64,000 nucleotides of DNA, from the IMG/VR virus record IMGVR_UViG_3300046171_000227, positions 11,269-75,268 of that record, one strand, 5' to 3'. This DNA is from a virus. Both the position numbers and the translations under genes were made by a program. Below are positions 8,366 to 53,176 of the stretch, one piece after another. Under the pieces are notes generated by a model. It saw nothing but the letters and a program-made list of their open reading frames with translations. It searched no databases and was not told the DNA's origin. Numbering within the stretch: the stretch's first letter is position 1; every line of letters starts with the position of its first letter.

Positions 8366-9703
8366 TCATTCTGGATAGTCCCAATTGGTAATTGAATCTG
8401 TCTCATTACGAGGGCCCCATGATCCCACTTCATGTATATACGGAGTGGTTCTAATTGGACAGGAGTCGCCAGTACAAAGGAGATCATCAACAATCCTCCA
8501 TGATTCTATCACTTCTTCAGAATGAACAAAGTGTGATTGATCACTTTCTATAGCATCATATAGAAGTTTTTCATAACCATCAACTCCCAACCAATCAGGA
8601 TAACGATGAGTAAGAGTAGCTAACTCTACACTCTCTCCTAATCCTGGAGATTTTACATCAATTTGAATATCTAGGTGAGCATGAGGTTGTAAACGCATAA
8701 CAATTCTACCAGGAGTCTCCCCTCAAATAAACCTAAGGGTGGCGCTTTAAGTTTTACAATAACCTCCACACATTGATAAGGCATTTTTTTGCCTGTCATA
8801 AAGCGAAAAGGAACTCCCTTCCAACGCCAGTTATCGATGAATAAAGTACCAGCAACATAGGTAGGAGTGTTACTGTCAGGATCAACGCCCTCTTCATCGC
8901 GATAAGTTTCATATTGTCCAAGGATCATGTCCTCCCCTAGATGAGTAGCAGATAAAACTTTGACTTTTTCTCTTCTAATTTCTTTTGCGTCCATTCTACA
9001 AGGTGCTTCCATTGCAACTAGTGCAAGAATTTGAAGCATATGATTCTGCAGCATATCTCTTACAACACCTGCACCATCGTAATATTGAGATCTTCCTTCA
9101 CAACCAATAGTTTCAGTCGCAAAAATTTGAATCTCCTCTATGTACTCTCTGTTCCAAAGTGGTTCAAGAAGAACATTACCAAAGCGGGTGGCAAGGATAT
9201 TATTAACAGTATCTTTACCAAGATAATGATCAATGCGATATACTTGTTTTTCGCGTAGATGTCGCTCCACCACAGACTGTAGATGATTAGCAGATTGATA
9301 ATCGTACCCAAAGGGTTTTTCAATAACAACACGGGATTTTTCTGGATCATCTAAAAGTCCTCCTTGCTTGAGGTTGATGATTGCCCATTCATATCTTTCG
9401 GGTGGGACAGATAAGAAATAAGTTGTATCATCAGGTTTTGGGAAGTGTATTTAAACTTTCCTGACAGGATAAGTCACATGAAACATAATCTAATTGATGT
9501 AGAAATTCCTCTGGATATTCTCCAAGAGATTTTTTCCAAGCATCAACTCCAACATCTCTTCTAGCAGCACCAGTAATTAAAAATCCCCTTGGAAGAAGAT
9601 CTTTCTCCCAAAGTTTATGAAGTGCTGGAATAAGTTTTCTTTTGCACAGATCTCCAGTGGCACCAAAGATTACTATACCTCTAGTGAGCAGTTCCGTTTC
9701 CAT
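8366..9703 (-). CDS. zwf: Glucose-6-phosphate 1-dehydrogenase (frameshifts at ~9430 and ~8690)
   Basis: IFGATGDLCKRKL, YRIDHYLGK, RDMLQNH, WRWKGVPF. Confidence 0.95.
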
Positions 9704-9809
9704 TGTATTTGTCTGTTTCATAATAGTTATTTTCACCCTTTTTCATTCCAAAAAGTACAGTAGTCAATACAAAAGGTATCGAAATTATCATAAGGAAATT
9801 ACCTAACAT
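9681..9809 (-). CDS. 42-aa membrane protein between gnd and zwf
   Basis: Manual translation MLGNFLMIISIPFVLTTVLFGMKKGENNYYETDKYNGNGTAH. Confidence 0.6.
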   Translation of the reverse strand: MLGNFLMIISIPFVLTTVLFGMKKGENNYYETDKYNGNGTAH

Positions 9810-10820
9810 GATGTCCTCCAAACATGTACCGCATTCCATTAAGAACTTTATTTGCAAATGCTCCTAACTTTCTTGATCCGAATCGTTCAAATAGTGCGGT
9901 TGATATAACAGGTGCGGGAACACCAAGATCCACAGCAGCGTGGACAGTCCAACGCCCCTCACCACTATCGCTAACTCCCCCACCGAACTTGCTAAGCTCT
10001 CTATCGCCGCGTAGAACATCAGCGGTAAGATCAAGCAACCAACTGCCAACCACGCTACCACGACGCCATAACTCAGCCACCTCAGCACAGTCAATATCAT
10101 ACTGATAATCTTCTGGATTCTCCATCGGAGCAACCTCAGCATCGCCTTCCTTAACATATTTTGCCCCAGCATTAGCTTCATGCAGGATATTAAAGCCTTC
10201 GGCGTAGGCTTGCATGATTCCATACTCTACTCCATTATGAACCATTTTTACAAAGTGTCCTGCACCTGGAGGGCCGCAATGCAACCAACCATACTCAGCA
10301 CTTGTTGCTCTACTCATAGGATCAGTTCTGGGAGATGAAGCGATGCCTGGTGCCAGTGCCCTAAAGATAGGAGCGCAGACGGATACTGCGCTATCTGTAC
10401 CACCAACCATAAGACAGTATCCACGCTCCAAACCGTAAACACCGCCGCTAGTGCCACAGTCAATATATTGGATGCCCAACTTAGAAAGACGCTCTGCCCT
10501 CCTCCTACTATCCTTAAAATTACTATTGCCATGATCAATAATAATATCTCCCTCATCACAAAACTGTAGTAACTCATTTAAGGTGTCCTCCACTGTTTCT
10601 GCTGGTACAACCATCATGAAAATTCCAGGAGCATTTGCTCTTTACAGCACTACAAAGTGATTGAATATCAACAGTTACACCATCAATACCACCATTTCTC
10701 CAAAAGTTCTTGCGCCTTTTCATAATTTCTACGATATCCCCATACTTCGATACCGTCTTTCATCATGCGGCGAGACATACCCTCGCCCATTCTTCCTAGT
10801 CCAATAATTCCTACTTTCAT
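9799..10820 (-). CDS. gnd: 6-phosphogluconate dehydrogenase (N-terminal region frameshifted)
   Basis: MKVGIIGLGRMG start; IDHGNS, DCGTSGG, GHFVKMVHNGVEYG, DSGEGRW. Confidence 0.95.
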
Positions 10821-34045: not shown

Positions 34046-34118
34046 TAGGGGTTGCGAGGATCGAACTCGCCTTAGGCAAATTATGAGTTTGCTGCATTCA
34101 CCAGATTGCTAAACCCCT
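34046..34118 (-). tRNA. tRNA-Ile2 (CAU; Met not excluded)
   Basis: AGGGGTT/AACCCCT acceptor; GCAAA-CTCATAA-TTTGC arm resembling cyanobacterial Ile2; lacks initiator features. Confidence 0.85.
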
Positions 34119-34193
34119 TGGTAGGACTGCTGAGAATTGAACTCAGTTCACACCGTTATAAGCAGTGGGCCTTAACCAATAGGCGACAGTCCC
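34119..34193 (-). tRNA. tRNA-Ile (UAU) with encoded CCA
   Basis: GGGACTG..CACTG-CTTATAA-CGGTG..TTCAA..CAGTCCTACCA. Confidence 0.92.
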
Positions 34194-34198
34194 TCAAT

Positions 34199-34369
34199 TC
34201 AAGAACCTTCTTCGTGTTCTGTATACATTTTTAGGAGTTCATCATTCGCTGGTATAAAGACAGCTGCTGTACCGTCTTCTTTGACAACGCCAAGTCTCTC
34301 TCCATTCTCAACTCGTGCGAAGAGTTCGTCGAAATTTTCTTCCCATTCTTTTAAAGAAAAGATTTCCAT
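34199..34369 (-). CDS. 56-aa Phd/YefM-antitoxin-like protein
   Basis: Manual translation MEIFSLKEWEENFDELFARVENGERLGVVKEDGTAAVFIPANDELLKMYTEHEEGS. Confidence 0.6.
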   Translation of the reverse strand: MEIFSLKEWEENFDELFARVENGERLGVVKEDGTAAVFIPANDELLKMYTEHEEGS

Positions 34370-34545
34370 TTGTTAACTATAGTGAAAAGTCCATGAGAGT
34401 AGAATCCCAGGACTATCGATCCCAGAATCGCACTTATAATTGTAGCAGTTTTATTGTGTTTGTCAATTGCCTTATCAATCATTTCTTGGCACTGTTTTTC
34501 CGTAACATAGTGCTCTGGTTTGATTTCATCCATCCGATGACTCAT
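34351..34545 (-). CDS. Small membrane protein
   Basis: C-terminal TM helix. Confidence 0.65.
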   Translation of the reverse strand: MSHRMDEIKPEHYVTEKQCQEMIDKAIDKHNKTATIISAILGSIVLGFYSHGLFTIVNKWKSFL

Positions 34546-34759
34546 CTTCTAGTCGCCCCAAAGTAACCATTCTCTCTTCCCATGTTACTCCACCTTCCAT
34601 TCCAGTACAAGGATTTATGCAGGTTTCATCACCGTGATTGTTACATACTAGTCCAGCAAGATCTAATTCGTTCCCTTTCTTGCCAGTATACCAGTAGTGT
34701 TGGCCACCTATCCAGGTTGCCTGACACTTTGGACACTCTTTAGTATCAAGTGATGTCAT
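34526..34759 (-). CDS. Cys-rich hypothetical protein
   Basis: CPKC, LAGLVCN..CINP. Confidence 0.7.
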   Translation of the reverse strand: MTSLDTKECPKCQATWIGGQHYWYTGKKGNELDLAGLVCNNHGDETCINPCTGMEGGVTWEERMVTLGRLEDESSDG

Positions 34760-35036
34760 TCTTTGTATGCTCCTTGAGTAATTGTTTTCTGTCTTTCACA
34801 AGTTGAGATCTAAGTTTCCTCATCAAGAAGTATGATCTCAATTTAATAAAAGAATACCTGACATTAAGATCAATGTATGCTACAAGTCGCATGGTGGCAT
34901 TATAACCACCTATTAAAATTAATGCAACAAATATCAGGACAAGAAGATAAAAGAGAACCAATATTTTTATGCAGGTATAATTGTATATAGAAACAAAATA
35001 TTTTCTAACAAGTGTAACATCTTGATACAAACACAA
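34746..35036 (-). CDS. Membrane protein (start uncertain)
   Basis: TM helix followed by a basic tail. Confidence 0.5.
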   Translation of the reverse strand: MCLYQDVTLVRKYFVSIYNYTCIKILVLFYLLVLIFVALILIGGYNATMRLVAYIDLNVRYSFIKLRSYFLMRKLRSQLVKDRKQLLKEHTKNDIT

Positions 35037-35110
35037 TCGGGATGATAGGATTTGAACCTACGGCCACTCGCTCCCAAAGCGAGTGCTCTACCAAACTGAG
35101 CTACATCCCG
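35037..35110 (-). tRNA. tRNA-Pro (UGG)
   Basis: CGGGATG..CTCGC-TTTGGGA-GCGAG..CATCCCGA. Confidence 0.95.
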
Positions 35111-35112
35111 GA

Positions 35113-35195
35113 CGGAGAGAACAGGAATCGAACCTGCGAAGGTGTTACCCTCAGCCGCTTTCAAGGCGGTGTCCTCGGCCAACCGGACTCTCTCC
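35113..35195 (-). tRNA. tRNA-Ser (UGA)
   Basis: GGAGAGA..CCGC-CTTGAAA-GCGG, long variable arm, G73. Confidence 0.93.
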
Positions 35196-35212
35196 AGGCA
35201 CATAATAGTTAT

Positions 35213-35695
35213 CTATTCAAAAAAATCAATTGCTAAACTGTATCTTGGCATAGTTACATTTGGAGGAACAGTATGTTTTATTTTACAGGGCAACAACATC
35301 AAAGAGTTGGTTGGACATTCTGTCTTGTAAATTTCATTTTCGATATTTAGCCATGATCCAATACCTTCAGGATTATCAATCATATAGACGCAAGTTACAT
35401 TATAATAACCCGGATAATCATGATCATGCCACACTTCATATGCCAAATCTTTATCAGTATAATTTACCCAAGAGGTTTTAACTGTTCTCGGTATATTAGA
35501 TTTTTCTGCTATTTTTTTAATTATGGGTGAAATAACTTCACATTTCATATGCAAATTATTCAGTGTTTGCAATCCAGGACAACCTTGAACTTTTTCTAAA
35601 AAACGTTTTGAACGAATGAATAAATTTACTCTTTCTTCTTCCGTAAGAATATTATCAATAATTTTTATTGAGTCTAATATATTATCTTTCCTCAT
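35213..35695 (-). CDS. 2OG-Fe(II) oxygenase-like protein
   Basis: WVN, WHDHD, HTVPP, RYSLA. Confidence 0.75.
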   Translation of the reverse strand: MRKDNILDSIKIIDNILTEEERVNLFIRSKRFLEKVQGCPGLQTLNNLHMKCEVISPIIKKIAEKSNIPRTVKTSWVNYTDKDLAYEVWHDHDYPGYYNVTCVYMIDNPEGIGSWLNIENEIYKTECPTNSLMLLPCKIKHTVPPNVTMPRYSLAIDFFE

Positions 35696-35927
35696 AATTT
35701 ATTTTACGTACTTTACGTTTTTTTCTTGCCTCTTGAAAAGCAAGATCCTGAGCAGAAAGTTTATTTGAAATTTTACTTTCTGATGATTTTATCATGACAA
35801 TTTGACTTAAATCAACTGCTGATACTTTATCATTAGTGACTATCATCATGTTAGGACAACCACAGACTTGAGTCTTAGTATTACTACAAATTTCTGTGTT
35901 GCATTCTTTGCAACGTACAATAATCAT
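35682..35927 (-). CDS. Zn-finger-like hypothetical protein
   Basis: CKEC...CGC; GGAGGG SD. Confidence 0.7.
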   Translation of the reverse strand: MIIVRCKECNTEICSNTKTQVCGCPNMMIVTNDKVSAVDLSQIVMIKSSESKISNKLSAQDLAFQEARKKRKVRKINYEER

Positions 35928-35951
35928 TTTTCATAACCCTCCTAATGGGAA

Positions 35952-36023
35952 TGCTTGATGACGGGATCGAACCGCCGACACCCAGAATGTAACTCTGGTG
36001 TTCTACCTCTGAACTAATCAAGC
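35952..36023 (-). tRNA. tRNA-Val (UAC)
   Basis: GCTTGAT..CCAGA-GTTACAT-TCTGG..ATCAAGCA. Confidence 0.92.
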
Positions 36024-36027
36024 AAAG

Positions 36028-36099
36028 CTCCCCCACTTGGACTCGAACCAAGAACCGCTCGATTAACAGTCGAGAGCTCTACCATTGAGCTATAGAGGA
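36028..36099 (-). tRNA. tRNA-Asn (GUU)
   Basis: TCCTCTA..CTCGA-CTGTTAA-TCGAG..TGGGGGAG. Confidence 0.95.
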
Positions 36100-36257
36100 T
36101 TGTTTTTTTGTTCCTTCTTTAGTTTGAAATACAGTTTATGATAATTATCACACATTTTTCTGAGAACATCTCTGTCTTCGTCAAAACCAAGTTTCTTAGT
36201 GTGTTGATAAGAACCTTCTAACTCGGATATAAGTAGAAGAATTTCAACTGGTTTCAT
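36090..36257 (-). CDS. 55-aa hypothetical protein whose stop overlaps the 5' end of tRNA-Asn
   Basis: Manual translation MKPVEILLLISELEGSYQHTKKLGF...NNPL; AGGA SD. Confidence 0.6.
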   Translation of the reverse strand: MKPVEILLLISELEGSYQHTKKLGFDEDRDVLRKMCDNYHKLYFKLKKEQKNNPL

Positions 36258-36273
36258 GTTCCTAAAAAAGGAA

Positions 36274-36345
36274 AGCGGAGTATCGGAATCGAACCGACGA
36301 CATCTAACTTGGAAGGATAGCGTTCTACCGCTGAACTAACTCCGC
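36274..36345 (-). tRNA. tRNA-Gly (UCC)
   Basis: GCGGAGT..CTTCCAA loop..ACTCCGCT. Confidence 0.93.
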
Positions 36346-36349
36346 GAGG

Positions 36350-36423
36350 CGTCTCAGGTAGGACTCGAACCTACGGCCGACTGCTTAGAAGGCAGTTGCT
36401 CTAATCCACTGAGCTACTGAGAC
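36350..36423 (-). tRNA. tRNA-Arg (UCU)
   Basis: GTCTCAG..CTGC-CTTCTAA-GCAG..CTGAGACG. Confidence 0.95.
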
Positions 36424-36435
36424 AAAAGAGAAGAC

Positions 36436-36642
36436 TCAAATCTCTGATTCAGAACCCCGAGTTGTGTCTTCAAGTACAATGTAGTCCATTCCATCCATTT
36501 TGTCAAGATCGAACCACTCGTACCATTCATCCATCATTGCAAGTCTATCATAAATTTGATCAACAGATTCATTTTGTGCCATTTCTTCAATATGAGTAAT
36601 AGCCCAGTTACGAGCCTGCATTACTACGTCCGTCGTTTCCAT
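36436..36642 (-). CDS. Acidic hypothetical protein
   Basis: METTDVVMQARNWA start inside the ORF-track ORF. Confidence 0.6.
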   Translation of the reverse strand: METTDVVMQARNWAITHIEEMAQNESVDQIYDRLAMMDEWYEWFDLDKMDGMDYIVLEDTTRGSESEI

Positions 36643-37060
36643 AGTAGTCTTTTCGGAAGTATCGGCTGAGGATGTTACTATTGTAGAACTTTGGAACTCC
36701 GTTGTCAAGGGATTCTGTAAGGACTCCGTTGACGAAGAGTTGTCTGGTTTCTTCAAAATTAGTTTTGCCCTTCGTGTTATGAACGCTGATAATAGTTCTG
36801 CTAAAATTTTGCTTACCGAATTTGTCAATGTCTTCTTTAAGTTCCGGACAAGAACCATAATATTTTTTCCAGTCAGATTCAGATTTTACTTTTCGTTTTT
36901 TACCTCTTGGAGTTCTAAACTGCCAGAAGTATTTTCTACCGATGTACTGTCGATTATTTTGTAAATTTGTAATGAGGTAGACAAAACCGAACTTATCGCC
37001 AATATTTTCAGATAAAAAAGGTTGTCCTTCAAAAATCCAGGGATTTTCATAATCAACCAT
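36608..37060 (-). CDS. GIY-YIG-like nuclease family protein
   Basis: GFVYLITN..RQYIGRK..YYGS; TATAAATA late promoter at 37084-37091. Confidence 0.75.
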   Translation of the reverse strand: MVDYENPWIFEGQPFLSENIGDKFGFVYLITNLQNNRQYIGRKYFWQFRTPRGKKRKVKSESDWKKYYGSCPELKEDIDKFGKQNFSRTIISVHNTKGKTNFEETRQLFVNGVLTESLDNGVPKFYNSNILSRYFRKDYYGNDGRSNAGS

Positions 37061-37086
37061 TACAAATTTATTTCAATTTCGATTAT

Positions 37087-39492
37087 TTATATCTTCCAAA
37101 TAAGATCACAATAATCTTGAATTGATCGATCTGATGAGAAGAATCCAGATCTAGCGATATTTATCAATGACTTACGACTCCATTCTTCACGATTGCCCCA
37201 GGTAGTATCAACTACACTTTGGGCACGATTATAATCCTCAAAGTCGGCACATACGCAGAATGGATCACTATTGAGAATATTATCAATTAGTGGTTTAAAT
37301 ACTTCTCTATCCCCGCCACTAAAGTGTCCAGATTTTACAAGTTGAATCGCTTCAAATAATTTGGGACTCATGAAATGTTTTGGATTGTATCCATTACTCC
37401 ATAGTTCACCAATCTGCTCCTCAGTATTACCGAAGAGGAAAAAGTTCTCTTCACCTACCAAATCACGAATCTCAACGTTTGCACCATCAAGTGTACCAAT
37501 AGTCAAAGCACCATTCATCTGGAACTTCATATTACCAGTGCCAGATGCTTCTTTACCTGCTGTAGAAATCTGTTCCGACAAATCCGCAGCAGGATATACC
37601 TTCTCTCCAAGTTTAACACTATAGTTTGGAAGGAAAATAACTTTCAGTTTCCCATCCATATCAGGATCACTATTGATAGTTTCAGCAATAGAGCAGATAA
37701 ATCTGATAATAAGTTTTGCCATCCAGTAACCTGGAGCAGCTTTACCGCCAAATATTACTGTGCGAGGTACAACGTAATCGTCTTTGTGATTTTTGATATA
37801 CACATACCTAGAAACCACCCATAAAGCAAGGAGATGCTGGCGTTTATATTCATGAATCCTCTTTACTTGAACGTCAAACATACTTGACGGATCAACAGAA
37901 ACACCAAGAGTCTTCTGTATATATCGAGACAGTTTATGTTTTCCTAAAGTTTTGGTGTTTGCAATCTGTTCGAGTAAGTTAGAATCATCAAGTCCATCTT
38001 CAAGTACTTGAAGTTTACTCATATCAGATATCCAATCAGAACCAATGTAATCAGTAATAACTTGACTTAATGCAGTGTTAGAACTTGCCAACCACCTTCT
38101 GGGGGTTACACCATTGGTAACATTAGTAAACTTATGAGGCCAAAGTTCATAGAACTCTGGCATTAGATTTTTAGTGATAAGATCTGAGTGAAGCGCAGCG
38201 ACACCATTTACATGATGAGATCCAACCGTTGCAAGGTTTGCCATACGAATAGATCTGTTTCCATCCTCATCAATGATAGAAAGTTTCCTGAGGATTTTGT
38301 CATCACCAGGATACTTCATCCTAACAACCTGTAAGAACCTATGGTTGATATCATAGATGATCTCAAGGTGTCTAGGAAGTAAATCCCCAAACATCTCCAG
38401 ATCCCACTTCTCAAGTGCTTCTGGAAGGAGAGTATGATTAGTGTATGCGATTGACTTGGTTGTAATATCCCATGCAAGATCCCAGTCAAGTCTATTATCA
38501 TCAACGAGAAGTCTCATCAACTCAGCAACAGCTACTGCTGGATGAGTGTCATTTAATTGAACTTGATAGTGTTTATGAAAATCTTCTAAAGAAATATTAT
38601 TTTCTTTAAGTGTTCTAATCATATCCTGAAGTGAGGCACTAACAAAGAAAAACTGTTGCTTTAATCTCAGTCTCTTTCCTTGACAGGTTCCATCATTTGG
38701 ATAAAGAACTTTAGAAATAGTCTCAGTAAAGACACACTTCTCTACCGAACCCAGGTAGTCTCCTTGGTTAAATGCATCGAAATCAAATACATCGCAAGCA
38801 TCCGCTCTCCAGAGTCTTAATTTGTTGCACCCCTCAACATTATATCCAACCTGAAGAACATCATAAGGAACCGCAAAGACGTACTCCTCAGGCACCCAGC
38901 GTACTCTCTTAATATTATCCCCATTGTTTGAGGTATAGTGTTCAACTTTACCACCAAAACCAACCTTTACGGATTGATCTGGATAACTAACTTCCCAAGG
39001 CCAATCACCGTGCAACCAGTTATCAGTAACTTCTACCTGTTGATTGTTGTGTATACTCTGCTTGAAAATACCAAACTTGTATCTAATACCATATCCCGTT
39101 GCAGGAACCTTCAGAGTGGAAAGAGACTCCATATAACAAGCAGCGAGTCTACCCAATCCACCATTACCCAATCCAGGTTCTTCTGCTTGTTCTAAAATCT
39201 CATCAAGAGAATATCCATACTCTTTTACAGACTCTGCCGCAACCTCTTTCAATCCAAGATTGAGTAAATTATTTGCTAGTTGTGGCCCTATCAAAAACTC
39301 TGCTGATAGATATGCGACTGTTTTATTTGGTTTAGGATTATTATGATAAGATGTCATCATCCTATCCCTAATGGCATAACACAATGCCATATACACATCA
39401 TGAACCGTTTCGGTTTTTGGTTTCTTACCTAAGGTGAATGTAAGATGATCACCAATTGCCGAACTAATATCAACAGTACTAATTTTATGCAT
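37087..39492 (-). CDS. glgP: Glycogen/starch phosphorylase (GT35)
   Basis: GLGNGGLGRLAAC, QLNDTHP, YTNHTLLPEALE, QVKRIHEYKRQ, EASGTGNMK PLP site, GTLDGANVE; intact 801 aa. Confidence 0.97.
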   Translation of the reverse strand: MHKISTVDISSAIGDHLTFTLGKKPKTETVHDVYMALCYAIRDRMMTSYHNNPKPNKTVAYLSAEFLIGPQLANNLLNLGLKEVAAESVKEYGYSLDEILEQAEEPGLGNGGLGRLAACYMESLSTLKVPATGYGIRYKFGIFKQSIHNNQQVEVTDNWLHGDWPWEVSYPDQSVKVGFGGKVEHYTSNNGDNIKRVRWVPEEYVFAVPYDVLQVGYNVEGCNKLRLWRADACDVFDFDAFNQGDYLGSVEKCVFTETISKVLYPNDGTCQGKRLRLKQQFFFVSASLQDMIRTLKENNISLEDFHKHYQVQLNDTHPAVAVAELMRLLVDDNRLDWDLAWDITTKSIAYTNHTLLPEALEKWDLEMFGDLLPRHLEIIYDINHRFLQVVRMKYPGDDKILRKLSIIDEDGNRSIRMANLATVGSHHVNGVAALHSDLITKNLMPEFYELWPHKFTNVTNGVTPRRWLASSNTALSQVITDYIGSDWISDMSKLQVLEDGLDDSNLLEQIANTKTLGKHKLSRYIQKTLGVSVDPSSMFDVQVKRIHEYKRQHLLALWVVSRYVYIKNHKDDYVVPRTVIFGGKAAPGYWMAKLIIRFICSIAETINSDPDMDGKLKVIFLPNYSVKLGEKVYPAADLSEQISTAGKEASGTGNMKFQMNGALTIGTLDGANVEIRDLVGEENFFLFGNTEEQIGELWSNGYNPKHFMSPKLFEAIQLVKSGHFSGGDREVFKPLIDNILNSDPFCVCADFEDYNRAQSVVDTTWGNREEWSRKSLINIARSGFFSSDRSIQDYCDLIWKI

Positions 39493-39513
39493 AATATTAT
39501 GCGATGTGTTTAC

Positions 39514-39560
39514 TATTTAAGCACAAAAAAAGAGTCCGTCAACTAAGTTGAGGACTCTGT
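39514..39560 (-). terminator. nrdB terminator followed by a TAAATA late-promoter core for glgP
   Basis: AGAGTCC-tcaacttagttgac-GGACTCT-T tract; TTAAATA at 39514-39520. Confidence 0.7.
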
Positions 39561-39574
39561 TTTGTTTTCCTAAC

Positions 39575-40765
39575 TCAAAGTTGGAATCCAGAAAAAGTAT
39601 CTTTCTTGACATCCTGCTTGATACCGCCTACAACATAAGACTCTACTTCTGTCTCTTGAGGAGCAACCTGAAGTCCTTTAGAAGAGATCCAATGTTGAGT
39701 CCATGGCAGAGGATTGTTCTTGGCAGCAATATCATACTGAGGAGTCAGTCCTATTGCCTTCAGACGACGATTAGCAATCCACTCAACATACTGCTGAAGA
39801 AGTTTGTCATTCAGTCCGATCATTGAACCATCTTTGAACAAATAGTCTGCCCAACGCTTCTCTTCGTTAACAGCACGATCAAACATCTTATAAGTCCACT
39901 CTTCTTCTTCCTTCATGATTTGCTTCATTTCAGGATCATCACCTTGTTTCCACTTATTAAGAATGTTTTGTGTGATTGCAAGATGCTGGTTCTCATCTCT
40001 GGCGATAAGCGAGATGATCTTAGCGGATCCTTCCATAAGTTTAAGTTCGCCAAATGCAAAGCTGCAAGCGAAACTAACATAGAATCGAATACCCTCTAGG
40101 ATGTTGACGTTTGCAACTGCTCTATAAAGTTTACGCTTGATGTCATTAATCTCCCATTGTGCTGTGGGAGAATCTCTGAACTCTTTACTCCACATATTAC
40201 CAGTGCCCCAAGTTTGAGCACTATTAATAAAATCATCATATGCTTCTGTAACGCTGCTAGCACGCTCTAGAATACGCTGATCAGTAACGATCTTATCGAA
40301 TACCTCTGAAGGATCCGAATAAACGTTCTTGATGATGTAAGTGTAAGAACGACTATGGATCATCTCCATGAATCCCCAGACTTCCATACATGCTTCCAAT
40401 TCAGGAAGAGAGCAGTAAGGAATGAATGCCATTCCAGGGCCTCTACCTTGAATAGAATCTAACATAATCTGATACTTCAGGTTAGAAGTATAGATATGTT
40501 TTTGTTCTGGACGAAGAGTTTGATAATCTCCACGATCTTTTTGCAGAGATACTTCTTCGGGACGCCAAAAGTATCCAAGTTGTTGAGTAGTCAGTTTATC
40601 GAAAACTGGATACTTATAAGAGTCATACCTCTGGACTCCCAGGGGTTTTCCAAAAAACATGGGTTGCTTTTTGGTATCTACTTGTTCTGTATTGAAAACA
40701 GTCATCCCTTTGACTTCTGTTTTCTTATCTTCTATTGATGAAACCTTAAACTGCACAGGATTCAC
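39575..40765 (-). CDS. nrdB: Ribonucleotide reductase class I beta subunit
   Basis: FWRPEEV, EMIHSRSY, LEGIRFY, RDENQH. Confidence 0.97.
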   Translation of the reverse strand: MNPVQFKVSSIEDKKTEVKGMTVFNTEQVDTKKQPMFFGKPLGVQRYDSYKYPVFDKLTTQQLGYFWRPEEVSLQKDRGDYQTLRPEQKHIYTSNLKYQIMLDSIQGRGPGMAFIPYCSLPELEACMEVWGFMEMIHSRSYTYIIKNVYSDPSEVFDKIVTDQRILERASSVTEAYDDFINSAQTWGTGNMWSKEFRDSPTAQWEINDIKRKLYRAVANVNILEGIRFYVSFACSFAFGELKLMEGSAKIISLIARDENQHLAITQNILNKWKQGDDPEMKQIMKEEEEWTYKMFDRAVNEEKRWADYLFKDGSMIGLNDKLLQQYVEWIANRRLKAIGLTPQYDIAAKNNPLPWTQHWISSKGLQVAPQETEVESYVVGGIKQDVKKDTFSGFQL

Positions 40766-43043
40766 ACTCTCCCTCCTCGGCTTGTTCTAATTCTTCTAAC
40801 AGGTTATTCAGTTTTTCTTTGTCTTCCTCTACTTCATCAGACTTTAGATCATTTGTGTTCTGGTAATAAGAGGTTTTCCAACCGTACTTATATGTAGTTA
40901 AAAAGTCTTGTGCCATGATGGACACTGGGACTTCATTATCATCATAATGCTCCGGATTGTAACTCCAGTTACCAGAAATTGCCTGATCAAAGAACTTTTG
41001 CATTACTGCGACAACATTAATATAACCTTTGTTGTTAGGCATGTCCCACAAGAGAGTATAATTATTCTTCAAAGAATTGTATTGAGGAACAATCTGCTTA
41101 AGAGGCCCTTTCTTTGATTTTTTAACGGACAAGTAGTCGCGAGGTGGTTCGATTCCATTGGTGGCATTTGACACAACGGAACTGCTCTCCGATGGCATCT
41201 GTGCGGACAACGTACTGTGCCGTAATCCAAATTCGTTGATAGATGCCCTAAGAGATTCCCAATCATGCTGGAGTTGTTGAGAAGAAATTTCGTCTACGTC
41301 CTTCTTGTATGTATCAATAGGAAGAATTCCATCGGCGTACTTAGTGCGTCCAAAGTATTCGCAGTGTCCCTTTTCCTTAGCAATTTGATTAGAAGACTTC
41401 AGAAGGTAATACTGGAAGGACTCAGAGAGTCCATGAACAGCATCCCATGCCTCTTGATCACCATACTTATATCCAAGTTTTGCCAGATAATGTGCTAAAC
41501 CGATGAAACCAATGCCAAGCGATCTACGTGCCCTTGTAGCGATTTCTGCTGCCCTTACAGGATACTTCTGATAGTCAATGAGTTCTTCTAGTCCGCGTAC
41601 AGAAAGATCACAAAGGTTTTCAAGTTCTTCATCAGACTTGACTTTACCAACATTGATAGCGGAAAGAATACAAAGTGCAATCTCACCATACTCATCATCA
41701 ATATGATTCAGAGGATATGTCGGAAGAGTAATCTCTTGACACAAGTTGGACATCTCAACCTTGTCTTTGAAGGATGAGTGAGAGTTACAATGATCGATGT
41801 TCATAATATAAACACGTCCAGTCTCTGCACGCTCTTTCAGCAGATCAAGAATCAGTTTCTGAGCACCGATAGTCTTTCTTGGAATAGACTGATCTGATTC
41901 ATAGTCCACATAGCGAGCGTCAAATGAATCAGTACCAAAAGCATCATACAAACCTGGTACGTCATGCGGTGAGAATAAGCTAATTTCTCCATCCTGGATG
42001 AAACGCTCATAGAAAAGTTTTGAAATCTGGATCGAGTAGTCAAGTTTCCTTACGCGATTGTCCTCTGTACCCTTGTTGTTCTTAAGGACAATTATGTCTT
42101 CGATTTCTTGGTGCCAGATTGGGAAGTGGACAGTCGCTGAGCCACCTCGTATTCCATTCTGTGTACAACACCGGACAGTCGATTCAAACTTTTTAAGGAA
42201 TGGTACAACACCTGTGTGTTGAACTTCTCCGCCTCGGATCTTACTGTTGATGCCACGGATTCGGCCTGCGTTGATACCGATGCCCGCCCTTTGTGCAACA
42301 TATCTGCCGATAGCCATATCAGAAGTAAAGATGCTATCGAGGGTGTCATCAACATCAACAAGAACACAGCTAGCAAATTGTCGAAGTGGAGTTCGCACTC
42401 CTGCCATGATAGGTGTGGGAATGTTGATTTTGTGTTTGCTGATTGCGTCGTAGTATCGTTTGACATAAGTCATCCTGGTTTCTTTGGGATACTCTGCAAA
42501 AATAGTCAGAGCAATCATGATATACATGAACTGAGGAGTCTCGTACACTCCACCAGTGCTGCGATCTTGAACCAGATACTTATCTGCTACTTGACGCAAC
42601 CCAGCATAAGTGAAGAGAAAGTCACGATGATGATCGATGTAGGAATTTGCTTTCGCAATCTCCTCCTTAGAGTATTTAAGGAAAATTTCTTTGTCATACA
42701 CCTCAATATTTGTGCAACTCATGATATGAGTTTCCAAATCAGGAAGTTCACGCATCTTTCCATATAATTGCTTCCTGAGTGAGAATAGAAGCAGTCTAGC
42801 AGCGACGAATTGATAGTTAGGATGTTCTAGATCAATCAGATCGCTTGCCGCCTTAATCAGAATTTCTTGAATCTCTGCTGTTGTGATGCCATCATAAAAC
42901 TGAATACCAGACTTCATCTCAACTTGACTAGCGGAAACACCTGCAAGTCCTGTGGTTGCTTCATCAACCATCAGATGCATTTTATCTAAATCAAGAGACT
43001 CGATTCTACCGTCTCGCTTTTTAACCTTGATACCGTTACTCAT
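40746..43043 (-). CDS. nrdA: Ribonucleotide reductase class I alpha subunit
   Basis: ATP cone, QFASC, SNLCQEI, KTSYY, C-terminal CESC. Confidence 0.98.
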   Translation of the reverse strand: MSNGIKVKKRDGRIESLDLDKMHLMVDEATTGLAGVSASQVEMKSGIQFYDGITTAEIQEILIKAASDLIDLEHPNYQFVAARLLLFSLRKQLYGKMRELPDLETHIMSCTNIEVYDKEIFLKYSKEEIAKANSYIDHHRDFLFTYAGLRQVADKYLVQDRSTGGVYETPQFMYIMIALTIFAEYPKETRMTYVKRYYDAISKHKINIPTPIMAGVRTPLRQFASCVLVDVDDTLDSIFTSDMAIGRYVAQRAGIGINAGRIRGINSKIRGGEVQHTGVVPFLKKFESTVRCCTQNGIRGGSATVHFPIWHQEIEDIIVLKNNKGTEDNRVRKLDYSIQISKLFYERFIQDGEISLFSPHDVPGLYDAFGTDSFDARYVDYESDQSIPRKTIGAQKLILDLLKERAETGRVYIMNIDHCNSHSSFKDKVEMSNLCQEITLPTYPLNHIDDEYGEIALCILSAINVGKVKSDEELENLCDLSVRGLEELIDYQKYPVRAAEIATRARRSLGIGFIGLAHYLAKLGYKYGDQEAWDAVHGLSESFQYYLLKSSNQIAKEKGHCEYFGRTKYADGILPIDTYKKDVDEISSQQLQHDWESLRASINEFGLRHSTLSAQMPSESSSVVSNATNGIEPPRDYLSVKKSKKGPLKQIVPQYNSLKNNYTLLWDMPNNKGYINVVAVMQKFFDQAISGNWSYNPEHYDDNEVPVSIMAQDFLTTYKYGWKTSYYQNTNDLKSDEVEEDKEKLNNLLEELEQAEEGECESCAV

Positions 43044-47988: not shown

Positions 47989-49216
47989 CTACTTCTTTAC
48001 CTTGTACTTATTTATGAAATTCTTGATACTAGTAGTGCCTGTTGCTGCCATAGCATTCTTAAGGTATCCACCAGTTCCATCTAAAGTATTAGGTTTGCCA
48101 GGAGTTCTCATCCGACGCTCCATGGTTTTCTCATCATACTCCATGACATCACGAATCCATGACTTGAACATATAATCTTCTTTTGTCAAACAGATAAGAT
48201 GATTAGTTCCTCTACGGATGATCTTACCAATCAATCCAGTGTTCAGGTTCTCTACAATATCACCAATCCTATAAATCAATCCATTTACATATTGCTCACG
48301 AAGTCCCTTTGCATCAAACTTTGGAGCAATCTCCCACATCTCAGCAGTAACTTTCTCTTTCTTCTTAATCTTCATTCCATCAGCAACAGCATCAAACAAT
48401 GATTTAGCTTGAGAATCTGTTACTAATTTAGGAAGTCCCTTCTTGAAGGAATCCATGTCACCATCTACAACTGCTTTCCTCATCTTGGAAGCAGACATTC
48501 CCTCAACACCCTCAGCGTCTGCATCTCTTGCACCAGCAGAGATTACTTTTATTTCACTGAAAGTTGTAGAGTTCGCCATTATATTTCTGTGCAAGGTTTT
48601 CAAACTCTGCTTGACGATCTGAACCGACGATTATATTAACCTTATCAAAATCTCTATCAGCACTCTGAAGAACATTAAATATAGATCTCATTTCATCATC
48701 GTTAATAATGTTCTCCTTAAAGTCAGGAAACATTTTTCTCATGAAGTTAACCTTCTTATCAGGATCAAGAGGGTTCTTCTTCTTATCTTGAGTTCTCGAA
48801 GGGAATATCCTTAATGTACCATTAGCGGCAACTTTCTTTGCCATCTTCAGTAACTTCTCATGTCCAACAGTGGGAGGATTGAATCTACCAAAAGCAAGAG
48901 TAAGTGTATCGCTACCAACTACTTTCTCTGCTTCCTCTCCACCTTTCTTCTTTTCTTTCTGTGGAGCTTTGTCCACAGACATTGTTTTAGTTTTGAGTTT
49001 AGGTTCTACCTTTTTTGTATTAGGAGTCTGATCTGGATCTCTTCCAGGTTTTTGATTTTTATCAAAGAACTTTAATTTACCACCAACAGTTTTAGCGACA
49101 AACTCGCCGGATCGATCTAACCATCCGCCATGTCCATCGCCTTTCAAACCAAGTTTTCTCGCCTGTGACGCAGCTTCTGTTTCTGCTTCACTAAGGAACT
49201 GAAAGAAACTTTTCAT
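47989..49216 (-). CDS. HxGH-family (cytidylyl/adenylyl) nucleotidyltransferase (frameshift ~48560)
   Basis: FGRFNPPTVGHEKL, VGSDR, MSASKMR; N-terminus MKSFFQFLSEA. Confidence 0.85.
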
Positions 49217-50808: not shown

Positions 50809-52181
50809 TAGAACTTAAATCCATCAAATGATTTTTTAGGTTTGTCTTCGTAAGTATACTCCTCTTCCTGCCCACTGTCAACCATATCAGTCTGGGCAGT
50901 TTGCTCACAATCATAAAGACGCATCTTTGCACGATCAATACCAACAATGAAACGCTTATACACAGTCGGATCATTGTAGCGATTCTTCAACTGCTTCACC
51001 ATAATCTGCCCGAGTTCTTCAAGCTCATCAGTTGAAATAAGGGCAAACATAAAATCAGCAGTAGCAGGGAGGCCAAAGGACTCACTAGTATCAGTAAGCT
51101 CAACATCAGAGCTACCATAACCAGAACGGGTAGTCTGGGTGGCAGATACGATAGGTACGTTCGCTTCGACAGCGAGTCCTCTAAGTTCTTCAGCAATAGC
51201 CTTGATATAACTGTATGAATTGACAGAAAGGTTTCCGCGATACCTAGAGGAAGCACATATATTAAGGTAATCAATGAAAATAATGTCAGGACGAAATGAT
51301 TTCTTAATAGCGAGTTCATTAAGCAAACCACGGAAATGTCCTGCATGTGCTGACGCAGTAGGGTATTCCTTAATAATTAGGGTGCCTTGAGTCTTTTCTG
51401 AGAGTTTTGTCACCTTACTCTCATATATCATCTTGGGAAGATCCGATATCTCCTGAATGGGTACATTAAGAAGGTTTGCATCAATTCGCTCTGCAATCTT
51501 TTCTTCAGCCATTTCAAGCGTGATGTATAGCACGTTTTTTCCGTTAAGGAGTGCCGAAGCAGCGACATGGCACATAAACAAACTCTTACCGACGCCAGTG
51601 CCAGCGAGAGCAATATTAAGCGTCTTGTTAGGGATCCCGCCTTTCGTAATCTTGTTGAAATACTCCAAGTCGAATTCGGTTTTGTCTTCTTTCCTGTGGT
51701 AGGACTCATAACGTGCCTCATAGTCTTGAAGGTAATCATGTCCTACATGGGTGTCAAATGACACTGCAAGGGCATCAGAAAGAATAGTTGGAATAGCATC
51801 ACGATTCTTCTTTTCGTCCTGTCCATCGGCAATAGAGATGGACTCCATCAATGCCAAGTAGATAGCACGATCACGGCACCACTTCTCAGTCGTAGATACC
51901 AACCATTCAAACTCAGTAGGTGCTTCTTCTAATAAAGAGATGAGTTGAGTTATTTCTTTATAGTCACCATCAGTAATGTCCTGACGCTTCTCCGTTTCAA
52001 TACAGAGAATCTCTTTGGTAACTGGTTTGTTATATTGTTCTACAAATTTAAGAATCTCTTCGTAAACAATCTTTTGACTACGATTATCAAAATAATCTGA
52101 TTTGATAAATGGAATTACCTTACGGACATATTCCTCATTATAAAGTAGGTTTCTAAGAATTAGAAACTCAACATTGTCCAT
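50808..52181 (-). CDS. gp41: Replicative DNA helicase (T4 gp41)
   Basis: LAGTGVGKS, ITLEMAE, IDYLNI, KQLKNRY. Confidence 0.97.
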   Translation of the reverse strand: MDNVEFLILRNLLYNEEYVRKVIPFIKSDYFDNRSQKIVYEEILKFVEQYNKPVTKEILCIETEKRQDITDGDYKEITQLISLLEEAPTEFEWLVSTTEKWCRDRAIYLALMESISIADGQDEKKNRDAIPTILSDALAVSFDTHVGHDYLQDYEARYESYHRKEDKTEFDLEYFNKITKGGIPNKTLNIALAGTGVGKSLFMCHVAASALLNGKNVLYITLEMAEEKIAERIDANLLNVPIQEISDLPKMIYESKVTKLSEKTQGTLIIKEYPTASAHAGHFRGLLNELAIKKSFRPDIIFIDYLNICASSRYRGNLSVNSYSYIKAIAEELRGLAVEANVPIVSATQTTRSGYGSSDVELTDTSESFGLPATADFMFALISTDELEELGQIMVKQLKNRYNDPTVYKRFIVGIDRAKMRLYDCEQTAQTDMVDSGQEEEYTYEDKPKKSFDGFKF

Positions 52182-53176
52182 AACTAAACTCCTGTTTTGC
52201 AATCTCGTCTAATTTTTCCATCACCTCTGGGGTGAAGTATTGTTCTGGATCTTTATAGATCGCCTTTGCATAGACTTTCTTACCGTCTATTTCATAGCGT
52301 CCAGCCACATTCTTCCAAAGTCCACCAAGTTCTCCCAATTCAAGCAAACCGTAGTAACGATCCAAACCACGATTATCATAGTAAAGGCGAACGGTAACAT
52401 CTTTGTTCTCCTTGCTTAAACGCGACTTAGCAGTCTTTGCCTTGATAAGATTTCCAACGACTTCAGTTCCATCCTTTTTCTTTCTTCTTAGACAAGTAGA
52501 TGATAGAAGAGGCAGCGTACTTGAGTCCAGAACCTCCACCCATTTCTTTAGTTGGGACATAAGCGCCGATGACATCATAAGTGTGATTCGTAACAATCAT
52601 TGGAATATTTGCTTGCCCCAGTTTAAGAGTCAACATTCTAAATGCACCTTTCACAAGTTGTGATTTAGTCATATCACGGACTTGCTTGTCATTCAAAACG
52701 TCTGTAATCTCCTTCTCAGTGGAAAGCATCCCTAAAGAGTCTAGCACAAACATACAGGGTTTGCGTTCATCTACAGGTTTTTTTAAATATAGATCAACTG
52801 CTTTCAGTGCCTTACTACGGAACTCCTCAATCGTAACGACATTGACGACAGCAATACGATTAAGATCTAAACCCCGATCTGCGAGAAGAGACTTGTTAAC
52901 AGCGGCTTCAGTGTCAAAATATAGACAATAACCATCAGGGTTAGAATCAAGGAAGTTCTTGACGACAGCAAGAGAGAAAAAAGTTTTTCCAGTACTAGAC
53001 TCCCCAGCAATGGCAGTAATCTTATTCCCAGATACACCACCAAAAATACTCCCTGAAACAAGTCCATTAAAAATGTACGAACCCGTGTCAACATATTTCT
53101 CAGTATCATCAATATCGGATGCAAGTTGCGTGTAGTCATCTCCGATCTCTTTTACAATTTCTTTAAGAAAGTCCAT
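52168..53176 (-). CDS. uvsX: RecA-like recombinase UvsX (frameshift ~52475)
   Basis: [30 protein letters not shown]. Confidence 0.95.

What the first reader, a model, noticed from the sequence alone, without database searches (positions are those of the whole stretch)
37087..39560. Intact phage glycogen phosphorylase beside nrdAB: a possible route from host glycogen to dNTPs and NDP-sugars
Seen: an uninterrupted 801-aa GT35 phosphorylase with the PLP site (EASGTGNMK), between nrdB and a GIY-YIG-like gene, with its own TAAATA late-type core after the nrdB terminator. Known: cyanophages carry zwf, gnd and talC to run the oxidative pentose phosphate pathway for NADPH and ribose, and glycogen is the host's carbon store. 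GlgP is not among the standard cyanophage auxiliary genes I know. Inference: the window encodes most of glycogen -> Glc-1-P (GlgP) -> [host Pgm] -> Zwf/Gnd/TalC -> NrdAB. Glc-1-P is also the precursor of the UDP-/CDP-sugars used by the glycan island 3.5 kb away. This could allow replication in the dark or at dusk.
Basis: partly seen in the sequence, partly recalled or inferred. Interest (0 to 1): 0.85.

Follow-up and report, generated by a model that had tools for sequence, protein, structure and literature searches.

The report
Cyanophage-encoded glycogen phosphorylase gene
A marine cyanobacterial virus carries an intact, trimmed-down copy of the enzyme that breaks down glycogen; the gene is common in uncultured ocean cyanophages but almost undescribed, and it probably lets the virus turn the host's sugar store into fuel and building blocks for its own DNA.

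Summary
**Observation:** confirmed. Window 37087-39492 (-) is an uninterrupted 801-aa GT35 alpha-glucan phosphorylase with every catalytic and PLP motif. It lies between nrdB and a SegE-type GIY-YIG endonuclease on an S-SM2-like T4-type cyanomyovirus contig.

**Not a chimera:** three independent IMG/VR assemblies and contigs of two public runs cross both junctions.

**Not unique:**
- At least 196 IMG/VR contigs carry relatives, and more than 120 protein clusters are at least 70% identical.
- All sampled copies form one phage clade under strong purifying selection (dN/dS 0.02-0.13).
- The gene sits at three different backbone sites: after nrdB, between regA and hsp20/gp43, and beside psbA.
- Only one cultured phage has it (S-SCSM2R, annotated but not discussed).
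- This scan met the same gene before on other cyanophage DNA.

**Relation to cellular enzymes:** the nearest cellular relatives I could retrieve are only 52-56% identical, and all keep a 16-33-aa C-terminal tail. That tail is a redox switch in Synechocystis GlgP1, and every phage copy lacks it. In 21 of 73 loci a PMM-type phosphohexomutase gene follows within two genes.

plausible and supported by context, but untested. The "late promoter" is inconclusive. The NDP-sugar link has no support on this contig. I could not test whether the gene came from the host.

**Verdict:** a new member of a known kind (a carbon-metabolism AMG), of moderate interest.

The parts
37087..39492 (-). glgP: 801-aa GT35 alpha-glucan (glycogen/maltodextrin) phosphorylase, core-only form without the C-terminal tail
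   Evidence: - Family: PF00343, 1029 bits; TIGR02093, 1117 bits.
- All catalytic/PLP motifs are present.
- dN/dS against close relatives is 0.015-0.04.
- No C-terminal tail.
39525..39558 (-). Hairpin plus T7 run after the nrdB stop (intrinsic-terminator-like)
   Evidence: - RNA fold -20.5 kcal/mol, z -4.24, 0 of 200 shuffles as stable.
- Conserved in L003-L005, with an insertion in the loop in L005.
39513..39520 (-). TTAAATAG box 20 nt upstream of the glgP ATG (late-promoter-like, 6 of 8 to TATAAATA)
   Evidence: - It is the only occurrence in the window, against 3.6 expected by chance.
- GTTAAATA(G) also lies upstream of glgP in L006, L008-L010, L007 and L013.
- Function not shown.
39575..40765 (-). 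nrdB, ribonucleotide reductase small subunit (upstream neighbour)
   Evidence: - PF00268, 195 bits.
- Intact against S-SM2.
40746..43043 (-). nrdA, ribonucleotide reductase large subunit with ATP-cone
   Evidence: - PF02867, PF00317 and PF03477.
- Intact against S-SM2.
36608..37060 (-). SegE-type GIY-YIG homing endonuclease gene (downstream neighbour)
   Evidence: - PF19835, 185 bits, profile 1-123 of 123.
- The same gene family follows glgP or nrdB in 18 related loci (cluster c12).
- It is also present, unannotated, in S-SM2.
37084..37091 (-). Perfect TATAAATA (T4 late-promoter consensus) overlapping the glgP stop codon, about 25 nt upstream of the segE start
   Evidence: Sequence read; ATAAATA match.
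34046..36423 (-). Cluster of 8 tRNA genes downstream of segE, syntenic with S-SM2
   Evidence: ARAGORN; S-SM2 annotation.
8372..10820 (-). zwf and gnd (oxidative pentose-phosphate AMGs), each interrupted by frameshifts in this assembly
   Evidence: - Matches.
- The same kind of frameshift breaks gp43 and uvsX, so these are assembly indel errors.

Best explanation
The gene encodes a functional phage alpha-1,4-glucan phosphorylase, an auxiliary metabolic gene of T4-like cyanomyoviruses.

**Proposed mechanism**
- During infection it phosphorolyses the outer chains of the host's glycogen (or the maltodextrins released from it) to glucose-1-phosphate, without spending ATP.
- A phosphohexomutase converts this to glucose-6-phosphate. 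In this phage the mutase is the host's. In about a quarter of related phages it may be a phage PMM-type HAD enzyme encoded next to glgP.
- Glucose-6-phosphate then feeds the oxidative pentose-phosphate route that the phage already boosts (zwf, gnd, talC). That route gives NADPH and ribose-5-phosphate for ribonucleotide reduction by NrdAB and for DNA synthesis.
- The phage enzyme is a core-only form. It lacks the C-terminal peptide that all its nearest cellular relatives keep and that acts as a thioredoxin-sensitive switch in Synechocystis GlgP1, so it is probably outside that control.

**Shown:** enzyme family, intact active site, purifying selection, genuine and recurrent phage context, absence of the tail.

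**Inferred:** substrate, direction of flux, downstream fate of the sugar phosphate, and escape from regulation.
For: **Family and active site**
- Full-length PF00343 and TIGR02093 matches.
- E 1e-298 to solved structure 9wvu and 1e-239 to rabbit muscle phosphorylase.
- Seven catalytic/PLP motifs are intact in 82 of 82 phage copies.

**Selection**
- dN/dS is 0.015-0.126 in 16 pairs.

**Genuine phage gene**
- Flanks are 80% identical to S-SM2.
- L003, L004 and L005 are collinear across both junctions.
- Contigs of public runs X1 and X3 bridge both junctions.
- Near-identical DNA occurs in at least 8 studies.

**Recurrent and old**
- 196 IMG/VR contigs carry it, and the best 120 protein clusters listed are all at least 70% identical.
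- There is one phage clade with support 100 and a stem of about 0.6.
- It occupies three backbone sites on S-SM2-like, P-SSM2/P-SSM5-like and S-SSM7-like phages.

**Link to replication and nucleotide metabolism**
- The glgP start overlaps regA by 11-17 nt in about 42 loci, or directly abuts nrdB (...GGAGGATAATG).
- zwf, gnd and talC are on the same contig.
- The complete genome G001 has glgP plus zwf.
- A PMM-family gene with DVDGT and GDxxxxGGND motifs lies within two genes downstream in 21 of 73 loci, in two different contexts.

**Missing tail**
- The cellular sister clade has 16-33 aa beyond the phage end; the phage median is 0.5 aa.
- The function of the tail is described in bioRxiv 10.1101/2022.11.21.517384 and PMC12892837.

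**Transcription (weak hint)**
- glgP-like contigs appear in RNA libraries of two studies.
Against: - No activity, substrate or expression-timing data exist.
- The protein is as short as E. coli MalP. It reaches neither the MalP nor the GlgP equivalog cut-off, so maltodextrins rather than glycogen could be its substrate.
- In Synechocystis GlgP1, deleting the C-terminal peptide lowers activity to that of the reduced form. So 'tail-less' does not by itself mean 'always on'.
- The host's own GlgP is reported still to be made during infection (review PMC10452541), so the need for a phage copy is not obvious.
- Nearly all cultured cyanomyoviruses do without the gene.
- This contig and the complete relative G001 encode no mutase.
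- In this phage a terminator-like hairpin separates glgP from nrdB, and its own promoter is unproven.
- RNA-library contigs may be carried-over DNA.
Confidence: 0.7

Rival explanations
1. The enzyme supplies glucose-1-phosphate mainly for NDP-sugar synthesis. These sugars would feed the phage's glycan or LPS-modifying genes rather than the pentose-phosphate pathway.
For: - In isolate S-SCSM2R, glgP overlaps a GT24 glycosyltransferase gene and sits among GT1, GT2 and GT11 genes and KdsA/KdsB.
- Context-C loci have GT25 genes nearby.
- The window has a nucleotide-sugar epimerase 3.5 kb away.
- The neighbouring PMM-type gene could equally serve mannose activation.
Against: - Only 5 of 82 copies lie in the glycan/psbA context. 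About 75 lie in replication or nrd operons.
- No credible sugar-1-phosphate nucleotidyltransferase is on this contig (PF00483 gives 12 bits, below the cut-off).
- S-SM2 has the glycan island without glgP.
Confidence: 0.12
2. It is a maltodextrin phosphorylase (MalP-like). It would clear short linear glucans released by host debranching or amylolytic enzymes, not act on glycogen itself.
For: - At 801 aa it has the length of E. coli MalP and lacks N- and C-terminal extensions.
- It scores slightly higher against the MalP equivalog model (894 bits) than against the GlgP one (878 bits).
Against: - Both scores are far below their cut-offs (1273 and 1546), so neither assignment holds.
- Its closest relatives by tree and identity are proteins annotated as glycogen/starch phosphorylases of the tail-bearing clade.
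- The best PDB match, 9wvu, scores far above MalP (996 against 753 bits).
- The physiological outcome (Glc-1-P from stored glucan) would be the same.
Confidence: 0.13
3. It is a passenger gene spread by the adjacent homing endonuclease or by hotspot recombination, with no benefit to the phage. Alternatively it is an assembly chimera with host DNA.
For: - A SegE-type endonuclease gene lies directly downstream.
- The gene has changed backbone site several times.
- The contig carries many indel errors.
- One low-confidence X3 contig joins 37056 to 39768, as if glgP were absent in a relative.
Against: - dN/dS is 0.015-0.13, and the reading frame and active site are intact in 82 of 82 copies across 30% protein divergence.
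- Independent assemblies and runs show the same junctions.
- Phage core genes flank it on both sides at all three sites.
- No cellular protein is more than about 60% identical.
Confidence: 0.03

Closest known systems
Carbohydrate phosphorylase ORF260 of Synechococcus phage S-SCSM2R (PQ898602.1; paper PMC12801897)
   Same: - It belongs to the same phage GlgP clade, at 76% amino-acid identity over 99% of the length.
- It has the same core-only length.
- It is the only cultured phage found with the gene.
   Different: - It lies at another locus, between a peroxiredoxin gene and a GT24 gene in the AMG island near psbA.
- The paper lists 22 cell-wall genes but does not mention this one.
Cyanobacterial GlgP (Synechocystis GlgP1/GlgP2; Nostoc and Acaryochloris homologues)
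   Same: - GT35 family, with the same catalytic and PLP motifs.
- 53-56% identity.
- These proteins belong to the cellular clade that is sister to the phage clade.
   Different: - The cellular enzymes carry a 19-32-aa C-terminal peptide. In GlgP1 it holds the Cys837/Cys842 redox switch, and A. marina has CLDADAC.
- All phage copies end at the catalytic core.
- The GlgP of the actual hosts (marine Synechococcus and Prochlorococcus) could not be retrieved here.
E. coli maltodextrin phosphorylase MalP and glycogen phosphorylase GlgP
   Same: - Same fold and chemistry.
- MalP has the same minimal length, with no regulatory extensions.
   Different: - Identity is only about 44-46%.
- The phage protein scores below both NCBIfam equivalog cut-offs.
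- The Citrobacter glgP stand-in falls in a different branch of the tree.
Cyanophage pentose-phosphate AMGs (zwf, gnd, talC, cp12)
   Same: - They are host-like central-carbon genes carried by T4-like cyanophages.
- They are thought to redirect carbon to NADPH and ribose for dNTP synthesis.
- zwf, gnd and talC are on this same contig.
   Different: - Those genes are well documented and common in isolates.
- glgP acts one step earlier, on the storage polymer.
- It is rare in isolates and has no published functional study that I could find.

Membership tests
GT35 alpha-glucan phosphorylase (PF00343 / TIGR02093) | Full-length match to the family profile above the curated cut-off | tested here: met
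   - PF00343: 1029 bits (cut-off 27), profile 2-713 of 713.
- TIGR02093: 1117 bits (cut-off 553).
GT35 alpha-glucan phosphorylase (PF00343 / TIGR02093) | PLP-binding lysine in EASGTGNMK, plus the phosphate- and glucose-binding motifs (GGLGRLAAC, NDTHP, TNHT, TNGxTPRRW, KRxHEYKRQ, GGKAAPGY) | tested here: met
   - All are present in the window protein, and in 82 of 82 phage copies.
- They align to rabbit muscle phosphorylase.
GT35 alpha-glucan phosphorylase (PF00343 / TIGR02093) | Phosphorolysis of alpha-1,4-glucans to glucose-1-phosphate | not testable with these tools
   Needs an enzyme assay.
Cyanobacterial-type GlgP with C-terminal regulatory peptide | C-terminal extension beyond the catalytic core (a redox switch with a Cys pair in GlgP1) | tested here: not met
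   - The phage copies extend 0-10 aa (median 0.5) beyond the window protein's end.
- All 31 members of the sister cellular clade extend 16-33 aa.
- The feature is defined.
Enterobacterial MalP (NF011561) and GlgP (NF011562) equivalogs | Score above the equivalog cut-off | tested here: not met
   894 against 1273 bits for MalP, and 878 against 1546 bits for GlgP.
Cyanophage auxiliary metabolic gene | Host-type metabolic gene flanked on both sides by phage genes, in independent assemblies | tested here: met
   - This window: nrdA-nrdB-glgP-segE-tRNAs.
- Confirmed by L003-L005 and runs X1 and X3.
- Other loci: gp62-regA-glgP-hsp20-gp43.
Cyanophage auxiliary metabolic gene | Maintained by selection within phages | tested here: met
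   dN/dS 0.015-0.126; a monophyletic phage clade.
Cyanophage auxiliary metabolic gene | Expressed during infection | tested here: inconclusive
   Contigs 90-97% identical to glgP occur in RNA libraries X15 and X16, but DNA carry-over cannot be excluded.
Cyanophage auxiliary metabolic gene | Derived from the host's own gene | not tested
   - Marine Synechococcus and Prochlorococcus GlgP could not be fetched.
- The phage clade is sister to a mixed cyanobacterial and proteobacterial clade.
T4-type late promoter | TATAAATA about 6-10 nt upstream of the transcript start, recurring before late genes | tested here: inconclusive
   - CTTAAATA is a 6-of-8 match.
- It occurs once in the window, against 3.6 expected by chance.
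- It is conserved upstream of glgP in related loci.

The most novel reading that the evidence does not exclude
The phage GlgP lineage may be a regulation-free enzyme. Having lost the C-terminal peptide, it would be blind to thioredoxin. Together with the PMM-type phosphomutase that often follows it, it would form a phage-encoded bypass of both host control points of glycogen catabolism: the GlgP redox tail and the phosphoglucomutase step. The virus could then drain glycogen into the pentose-phosphate pathway whatever the light or redox state of the cell.
Probability: 0.3. Interest if true: 0.75.

Novelty: new member of a known kind. Interest (0 to 1): 0.55.

Why it matters
Cyanophages are known to shut down carbon fixation and push host carbon through the pentose-phosphate pathway, but where that carbon comes from has been left to the host. 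A phage-encoded, selectively maintained glycogen phosphorylase would extend the known takeover one step upstream, to the storage polymer itself.

Three features support this view:
- The gene is wired into replication and ribonucleotide-reductase operons.
- It is spread over several cyanomyovirus lineages that infect both Synechococcus and Prochlorococcus.
- It lacks the tail that regulates the cellular enzyme.

If it works as proposed, it bears on:
- how infection proceeds at night or in low light;
- how much fixed carbon is diverted into virions in the ocean;
- how AMGs move between hotspots in T4-like genomes.

It is directly testable, because one cultured phage (S-SCSM2R) has the gene and close relatives lack it.

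Tried and rejected
- **Chimeric assembly:** rejected.
- **Pseudogenised zwf, gnd and talC as a biological twist:** rejected. A scan against S-SM2 proteins shows the same kind of frameshift in gp43 (at least 3), uvsX and a cytidylyltransferase, roughly 1 per 6 kb. These are assembly indel errors.
- **Fetching the hosts' GlgP:** failed.
  - 'of' needs a genome handle.
  - Plasmid loci give W handles, which have no relatives.
- **The look-up of encoding contigs:** I could not view the 143-kb and 210-kb contigs that hold 98%-identical copies.
- **Primary proteomics paper (PNAS 2019, PMC6681717):** not held. Only the review's sentence could be used.
- **Organism of PDB entry 9wvu:** not identifiable.
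- **ESM Atlas:** gave only the family, no useful taxonomy.
- **50%-identity representative library:** it merges the phage clade with a 52%-identical representative, so it gave no closer cellular relative.
- **Simple terminator scan:** it missed the nrdB hairpin because of a bulge; folding found it.
- **Strict glgP-PMM linkage:** rejected.
  - P-TIM68, S-SSM7 and S-SSM6a have the PMM-like gene without glgP.
  - G001 has glgP without it.
- **X3 joint 37056>39768 (a possible glgP-less variant):** one contig with only 20 letters on the shorter side, so it is too weak to count.
- **Coral virome paper that mentions glgP:** not about cyanophages.
Full report
**1.

The minus strand of the window carries an open frame at 37087..39492 that encodes 801 residues without a stop.
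- It matches the Pfam carbohydrate phosphorylase profile from position 2 to 713 of 713 (1029 bits).
- It matches NCBIfam TIGR02093, the glycogen/starch/alpha-glucan phosphorylase family, at 1117 bits against a cut-off of 553.
- Against solved structures it gives E 1e-298 to entry 9wvu, 1e-239 to rabbit muscle glycogen phosphorylase and 1e-225 to E. coli MalP.
- The PLP-lysine motif EASGTGNMKF is at residues 648-657. The glycine loop GLGNGGLGRLAAC, NDTHP, TNHT, TNGxTPRRW, KRxHEYKRQ and GGKAAPGY are all present.
- Upstream on the same strand lie nrdB, nrdA and the gp61 primase. Downstream lies a SegE-type GIY-YIG endonuclease gene (PF19835, full domain), followed by eight tRNA genes.

**2. It is a real phage gene, not an assembly artefact**

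- The window is part of a 75,268-base IMG/VR record with an estimated completeness of 35%.
- Its flanks are about 80% identical in DNA to Synechococcus phages S-SM2 and Bellamy.
- S-SM2 has the same order, nrdA-nrdB-...-segE-like-tRNAs, but no phosphorylase.
- Three IMG/VR contigs from other metagenomes are collinear with the window across both junctions: L003 at 96.7% over 10 kb, L004 at 95% and L005 at 89%.
- Near-identical sequence is held by seawater and viral metagenome runs from at least eight studies.
- When laid on the stretch, X3 record 26 bridges segE-glgP. X3 record 31 and X1 records 5 and 6 bridge glgP-nrdB.
- The contig does have many indel errors. A scan with S-SM2 proteins finds frameshifts in gp43 (at least three), uvsX, a cytidylyltransferase, zwf (two), gnd and talC.
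- Essential genes are hit too, so these are sequencing or assembly errors, not decay of the pentose-phosphate genes. glgP is intact here and in all relatives.

**3. The gene is widespread in uncultured cyanomyoviruses and sits at three sites**

- A scan of IMG/VR found 196 contigs encoding relatives. The best 80 are 69-99% identical.
- The large protein collection lists more than 120 clusters at 70% identity or more, all 755-813 residues long. Some lie on contigs of 238-251 kb.
- I clustered the flanking open frames of the 80 loci and annotated the common clusters. Three contexts recur:
  - (A) nrdA-nrdB-glgP-[segE], as in the window, in about 20 loci whose GlgP is 70-99% identical to the window's.
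  - (B) gp45-gp44-[dam]-gp62-regA-glgP-...-hsp20-DUF6561-gp43, in about 55 loci.
  - (C) beside psbA and glycosyltransferase genes, in four loci and in the isolate S-SCSM2R.
- The backbones resemble S-SM2 (A), Prochlorococcus phages P-SSM5 and P-SSM2 (B) and S-SSM7 (C). The gene therefore spans several lineages and both host genera.
- Among 50,697 phage records, only S-SCSM2R is a genuine phage with the gene. Its paper does not mention it.

**4. One phage clade, old and under selection**

- A FastTree of 155 sequences and an IQ-TREE of 57 both put all phage copies in one clade (support 100) on a long stem of about 0.6 changes per site.
- That clade is sister (support 89 and 99) to a cellular clade that mixes cyanobacterial GlgPs (Nostoc, Acaryochloris) with those of Nevskiales, Steroidobacteraceae, Accumulibacter, Methylococcaceae and a few others.
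- No cellular protein that I could retrieve is closer than 52-56%. The PDB entry 9wvu, whose organism I could not identify, is about 59% by my count of the printed alignment.
- Inside the phage clade the genomic context changes at least four to six times. The gene has therefore moved between hotspots or been exchanged between phages.
- Pairwise dN/dS is 0.015-0.126 in 16 pairs, and all catalytic motifs are intact in 82 of 82 copies. The protein is kept for its activity.

**5. What differs from the cellular enzymes**

- Every member of the sister cellular clade extends 16-33 residues beyond the point where the phage proteins stop, with a conserved pattern (xPVxVxLL...AGxLQ). A. marina adds CLDADAC.
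- The 82 phage proteins extend 0-10 residues (median 0.5) beyond the window protein's end.
- A recent review and its primary source describe this C-terminal peptide as a hallmark of cyanobacterial GlgPs. In Synechocystis GlgP1 it is a Cys837/Cys842 redox switch: the enzyme is active when oxidised and inhibited by reduced thioredoxin.
- The same source shows that deleting the peptide leaves GlgP1 in its low-activity state. The phage enzyme can be called insensitive to that switch, but not automatically hyperactive.
- N-terminal shortening (about 10-40 residues against most relatives) depends on annotated start sites, so I rate it as suggestive only.
- The protein reaches neither the MalP nor the GlgP equivalog cut-off of NCBIfam. 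Whether it prefers glycogen or maltodextrin is open.

**6. Expression signals**

- In the window, an 82-nt spacer follows nrdB. It has a strong hairpin plus a T7 run (-20.5 kcal/mol, z -4.2) and then CTTAAATAG 20 nt before the ATG.
- Both elements are conserved in L003-L005. GTTAAATA(G) also precedes glgP in L006, L008-L010, L007 and L013. The two context-C loci add a near-consensus TTGACG-N15/16-TATAAT.
- The box is only a 6-of-8 match to the T4 late consensus, and it occurs once in the window against 3.6 expected by chance. A late promoter is therefore not shown.
- In most other phages there is no room for signals at all.
  - In about 42 context-B loci the only usable start is a TTG 11-17 nt inside the end of regA. 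In others it is an ATG 1-6 nt after the regA stop.
  - In half of the context-A loci the start overlaps the upstream stop (...GGAGGATAATG).
- There the gene is co-transcribed, and probably translationally coupled, with replication and ribonucleotide-reductase genes.
- Contigs 90-97% identical to glgP occur in RNA libraries of two studies. This is a weak hint of transcription.

**7.

- zwf, gnd and talC are on the contig; cp12 is not.
- The complete 250,613-base relative G001 has nrdA-nrdB-glgP and an intact zwf.
- In 14 of 73 informative loci the gene directly downstream of glgP, and in 7 more the second gene, encodes a 238-residue HAD protein of the eukaryotic phosphomannomutase family (PF03332, 75 bits). 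It has the DVDGT and FFGDxxxxGGND motifs.
- This pairing occurs in both context B and context A (L070, L071). Enzymes of this family interconvert hexose 1- and 6-phosphates (general knowledge of the family; not tested here).
- The pairing is not obligatory.
  - P-TIM68, S-SSM7 and S-SSM6a have the gene without glgP.
  - The window's contig and G001 have glgP without it and without a classical phosphoglucomutase.
It fits only the minority context C.

**8. Literature and earlier notes**

- Searches of the held library found no paper that describes a cyanophage glycogen phosphorylase.
- One review says that the host glycogen phosphorylase keeps being made during S-SM1 infection and has homologues in phages or viral metagenome fragments. 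The primary paper is not held.
- This scan met the same gene before on other cyanophage genomes. Those notes call it host-derived and trimmed at both ends.
- I confirmed the missing C-terminal tail against the relatives I could fetch, and I saw the psbA-side context myself. I could not test the host derivation.

**9. Verdict**

The gene is a functional, phage-adapted alpha-glucan phosphorylase.
- The best-supported role is mobilising the host's glucan store into sugar phosphates for the phage-boosted pentose-phosphate and dNTP supply. I put about 0.7 on that, with enzyme identity near certain and physiology inferred.
- It is a new member of a known kind (a cyanophage carbon-metabolism AMG): present in databases and in one isolate, but uncharacterised.
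- The tail-less architecture, the three insertion sites and the frequent mutase neighbour are the parts worth following up.

Noticed in passing
L054:3336-4052 (+) and 21 other IMG/VR loci; also P-TIM68 gp126 (L179:4968-5714), S-SSM7, S-SSM6a: A 238-aa HAD protein of the eukaryotic phosphomannomutase family (PF03332; DVDGT and GDxxxxGGND motifs) is carried by T4-like cyanophages, often right after glgP. In cultured phages it is annotated 'hypothetical protein'.
   Followed up: partly
window 53693-56190 (gp43), 52174-53176 (uvsX), 48010-49216, 8372-9742 (zwf), 9802-10820 (gnd); talC at G000 10742-11382: The contig carries about 13 frameshifts relative to S-SM2 proteins, including at least 3 in the DNA polymerase. 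This is the pattern of assembly or sequencing indel errors, so broken genes on this record should not be read as pseudogenes.
   Followed up: yes
window 37084-37091 (-): A perfect TATAAATA (T4 late-promoter consensus) overlaps the glgP stop codon about 25 nt upstream of the segE start. The homing endonuclease gene may therefore have its own late promoter.
   Followed up: no
window 36436-37060 (-); S-SM2 140285-140945: The GIY-YIG ORF (36608-37060) overlaps a second ORF in another frame (36436-36858), and S-SM2 shows the same two-frame arrangement. In S-SM2 the GIY-YIG frame is unannotated and overlaps SSM2_173 and SSM2_174.
   Followed up: partly
L018:31-1779 (+) and 6 other context-B loci (cluster c34): A 582-aa glycine-cleavage P-protein-like gene (PF21478 GcvP2_C 149 bits; PF02347) sits just upstream of gp62-regA-glgP in several uncultured cyanomyoviruses. 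I do not know it as a usual cyanophage AMG.
   Followed up: no
L016:1502-2629 (+) and 9 other loci (cluster c27): A 375-aa protein with a weak match to the Druantia DruA family (PF14236, 31 bits) lies between gp44 and gp62 in context-B phages.
   Followed up: no
L006:5217-9370 (+), record G001 (250,613 bp, CheckV 100%): In the 250-kb phage group, two large genes of unknown function (907 aa and 445 aa, with no credible Pfam match) are inserted between glgP and segE.
   Followed up: no
window 36300-41000, run X3: One contig joins 37056 to 39768, skipping glgP and the end of nrdB. This may reflect a co-occurring glgP-less relative, but only 20 letters lie on the shorter side.
   Followed up: no
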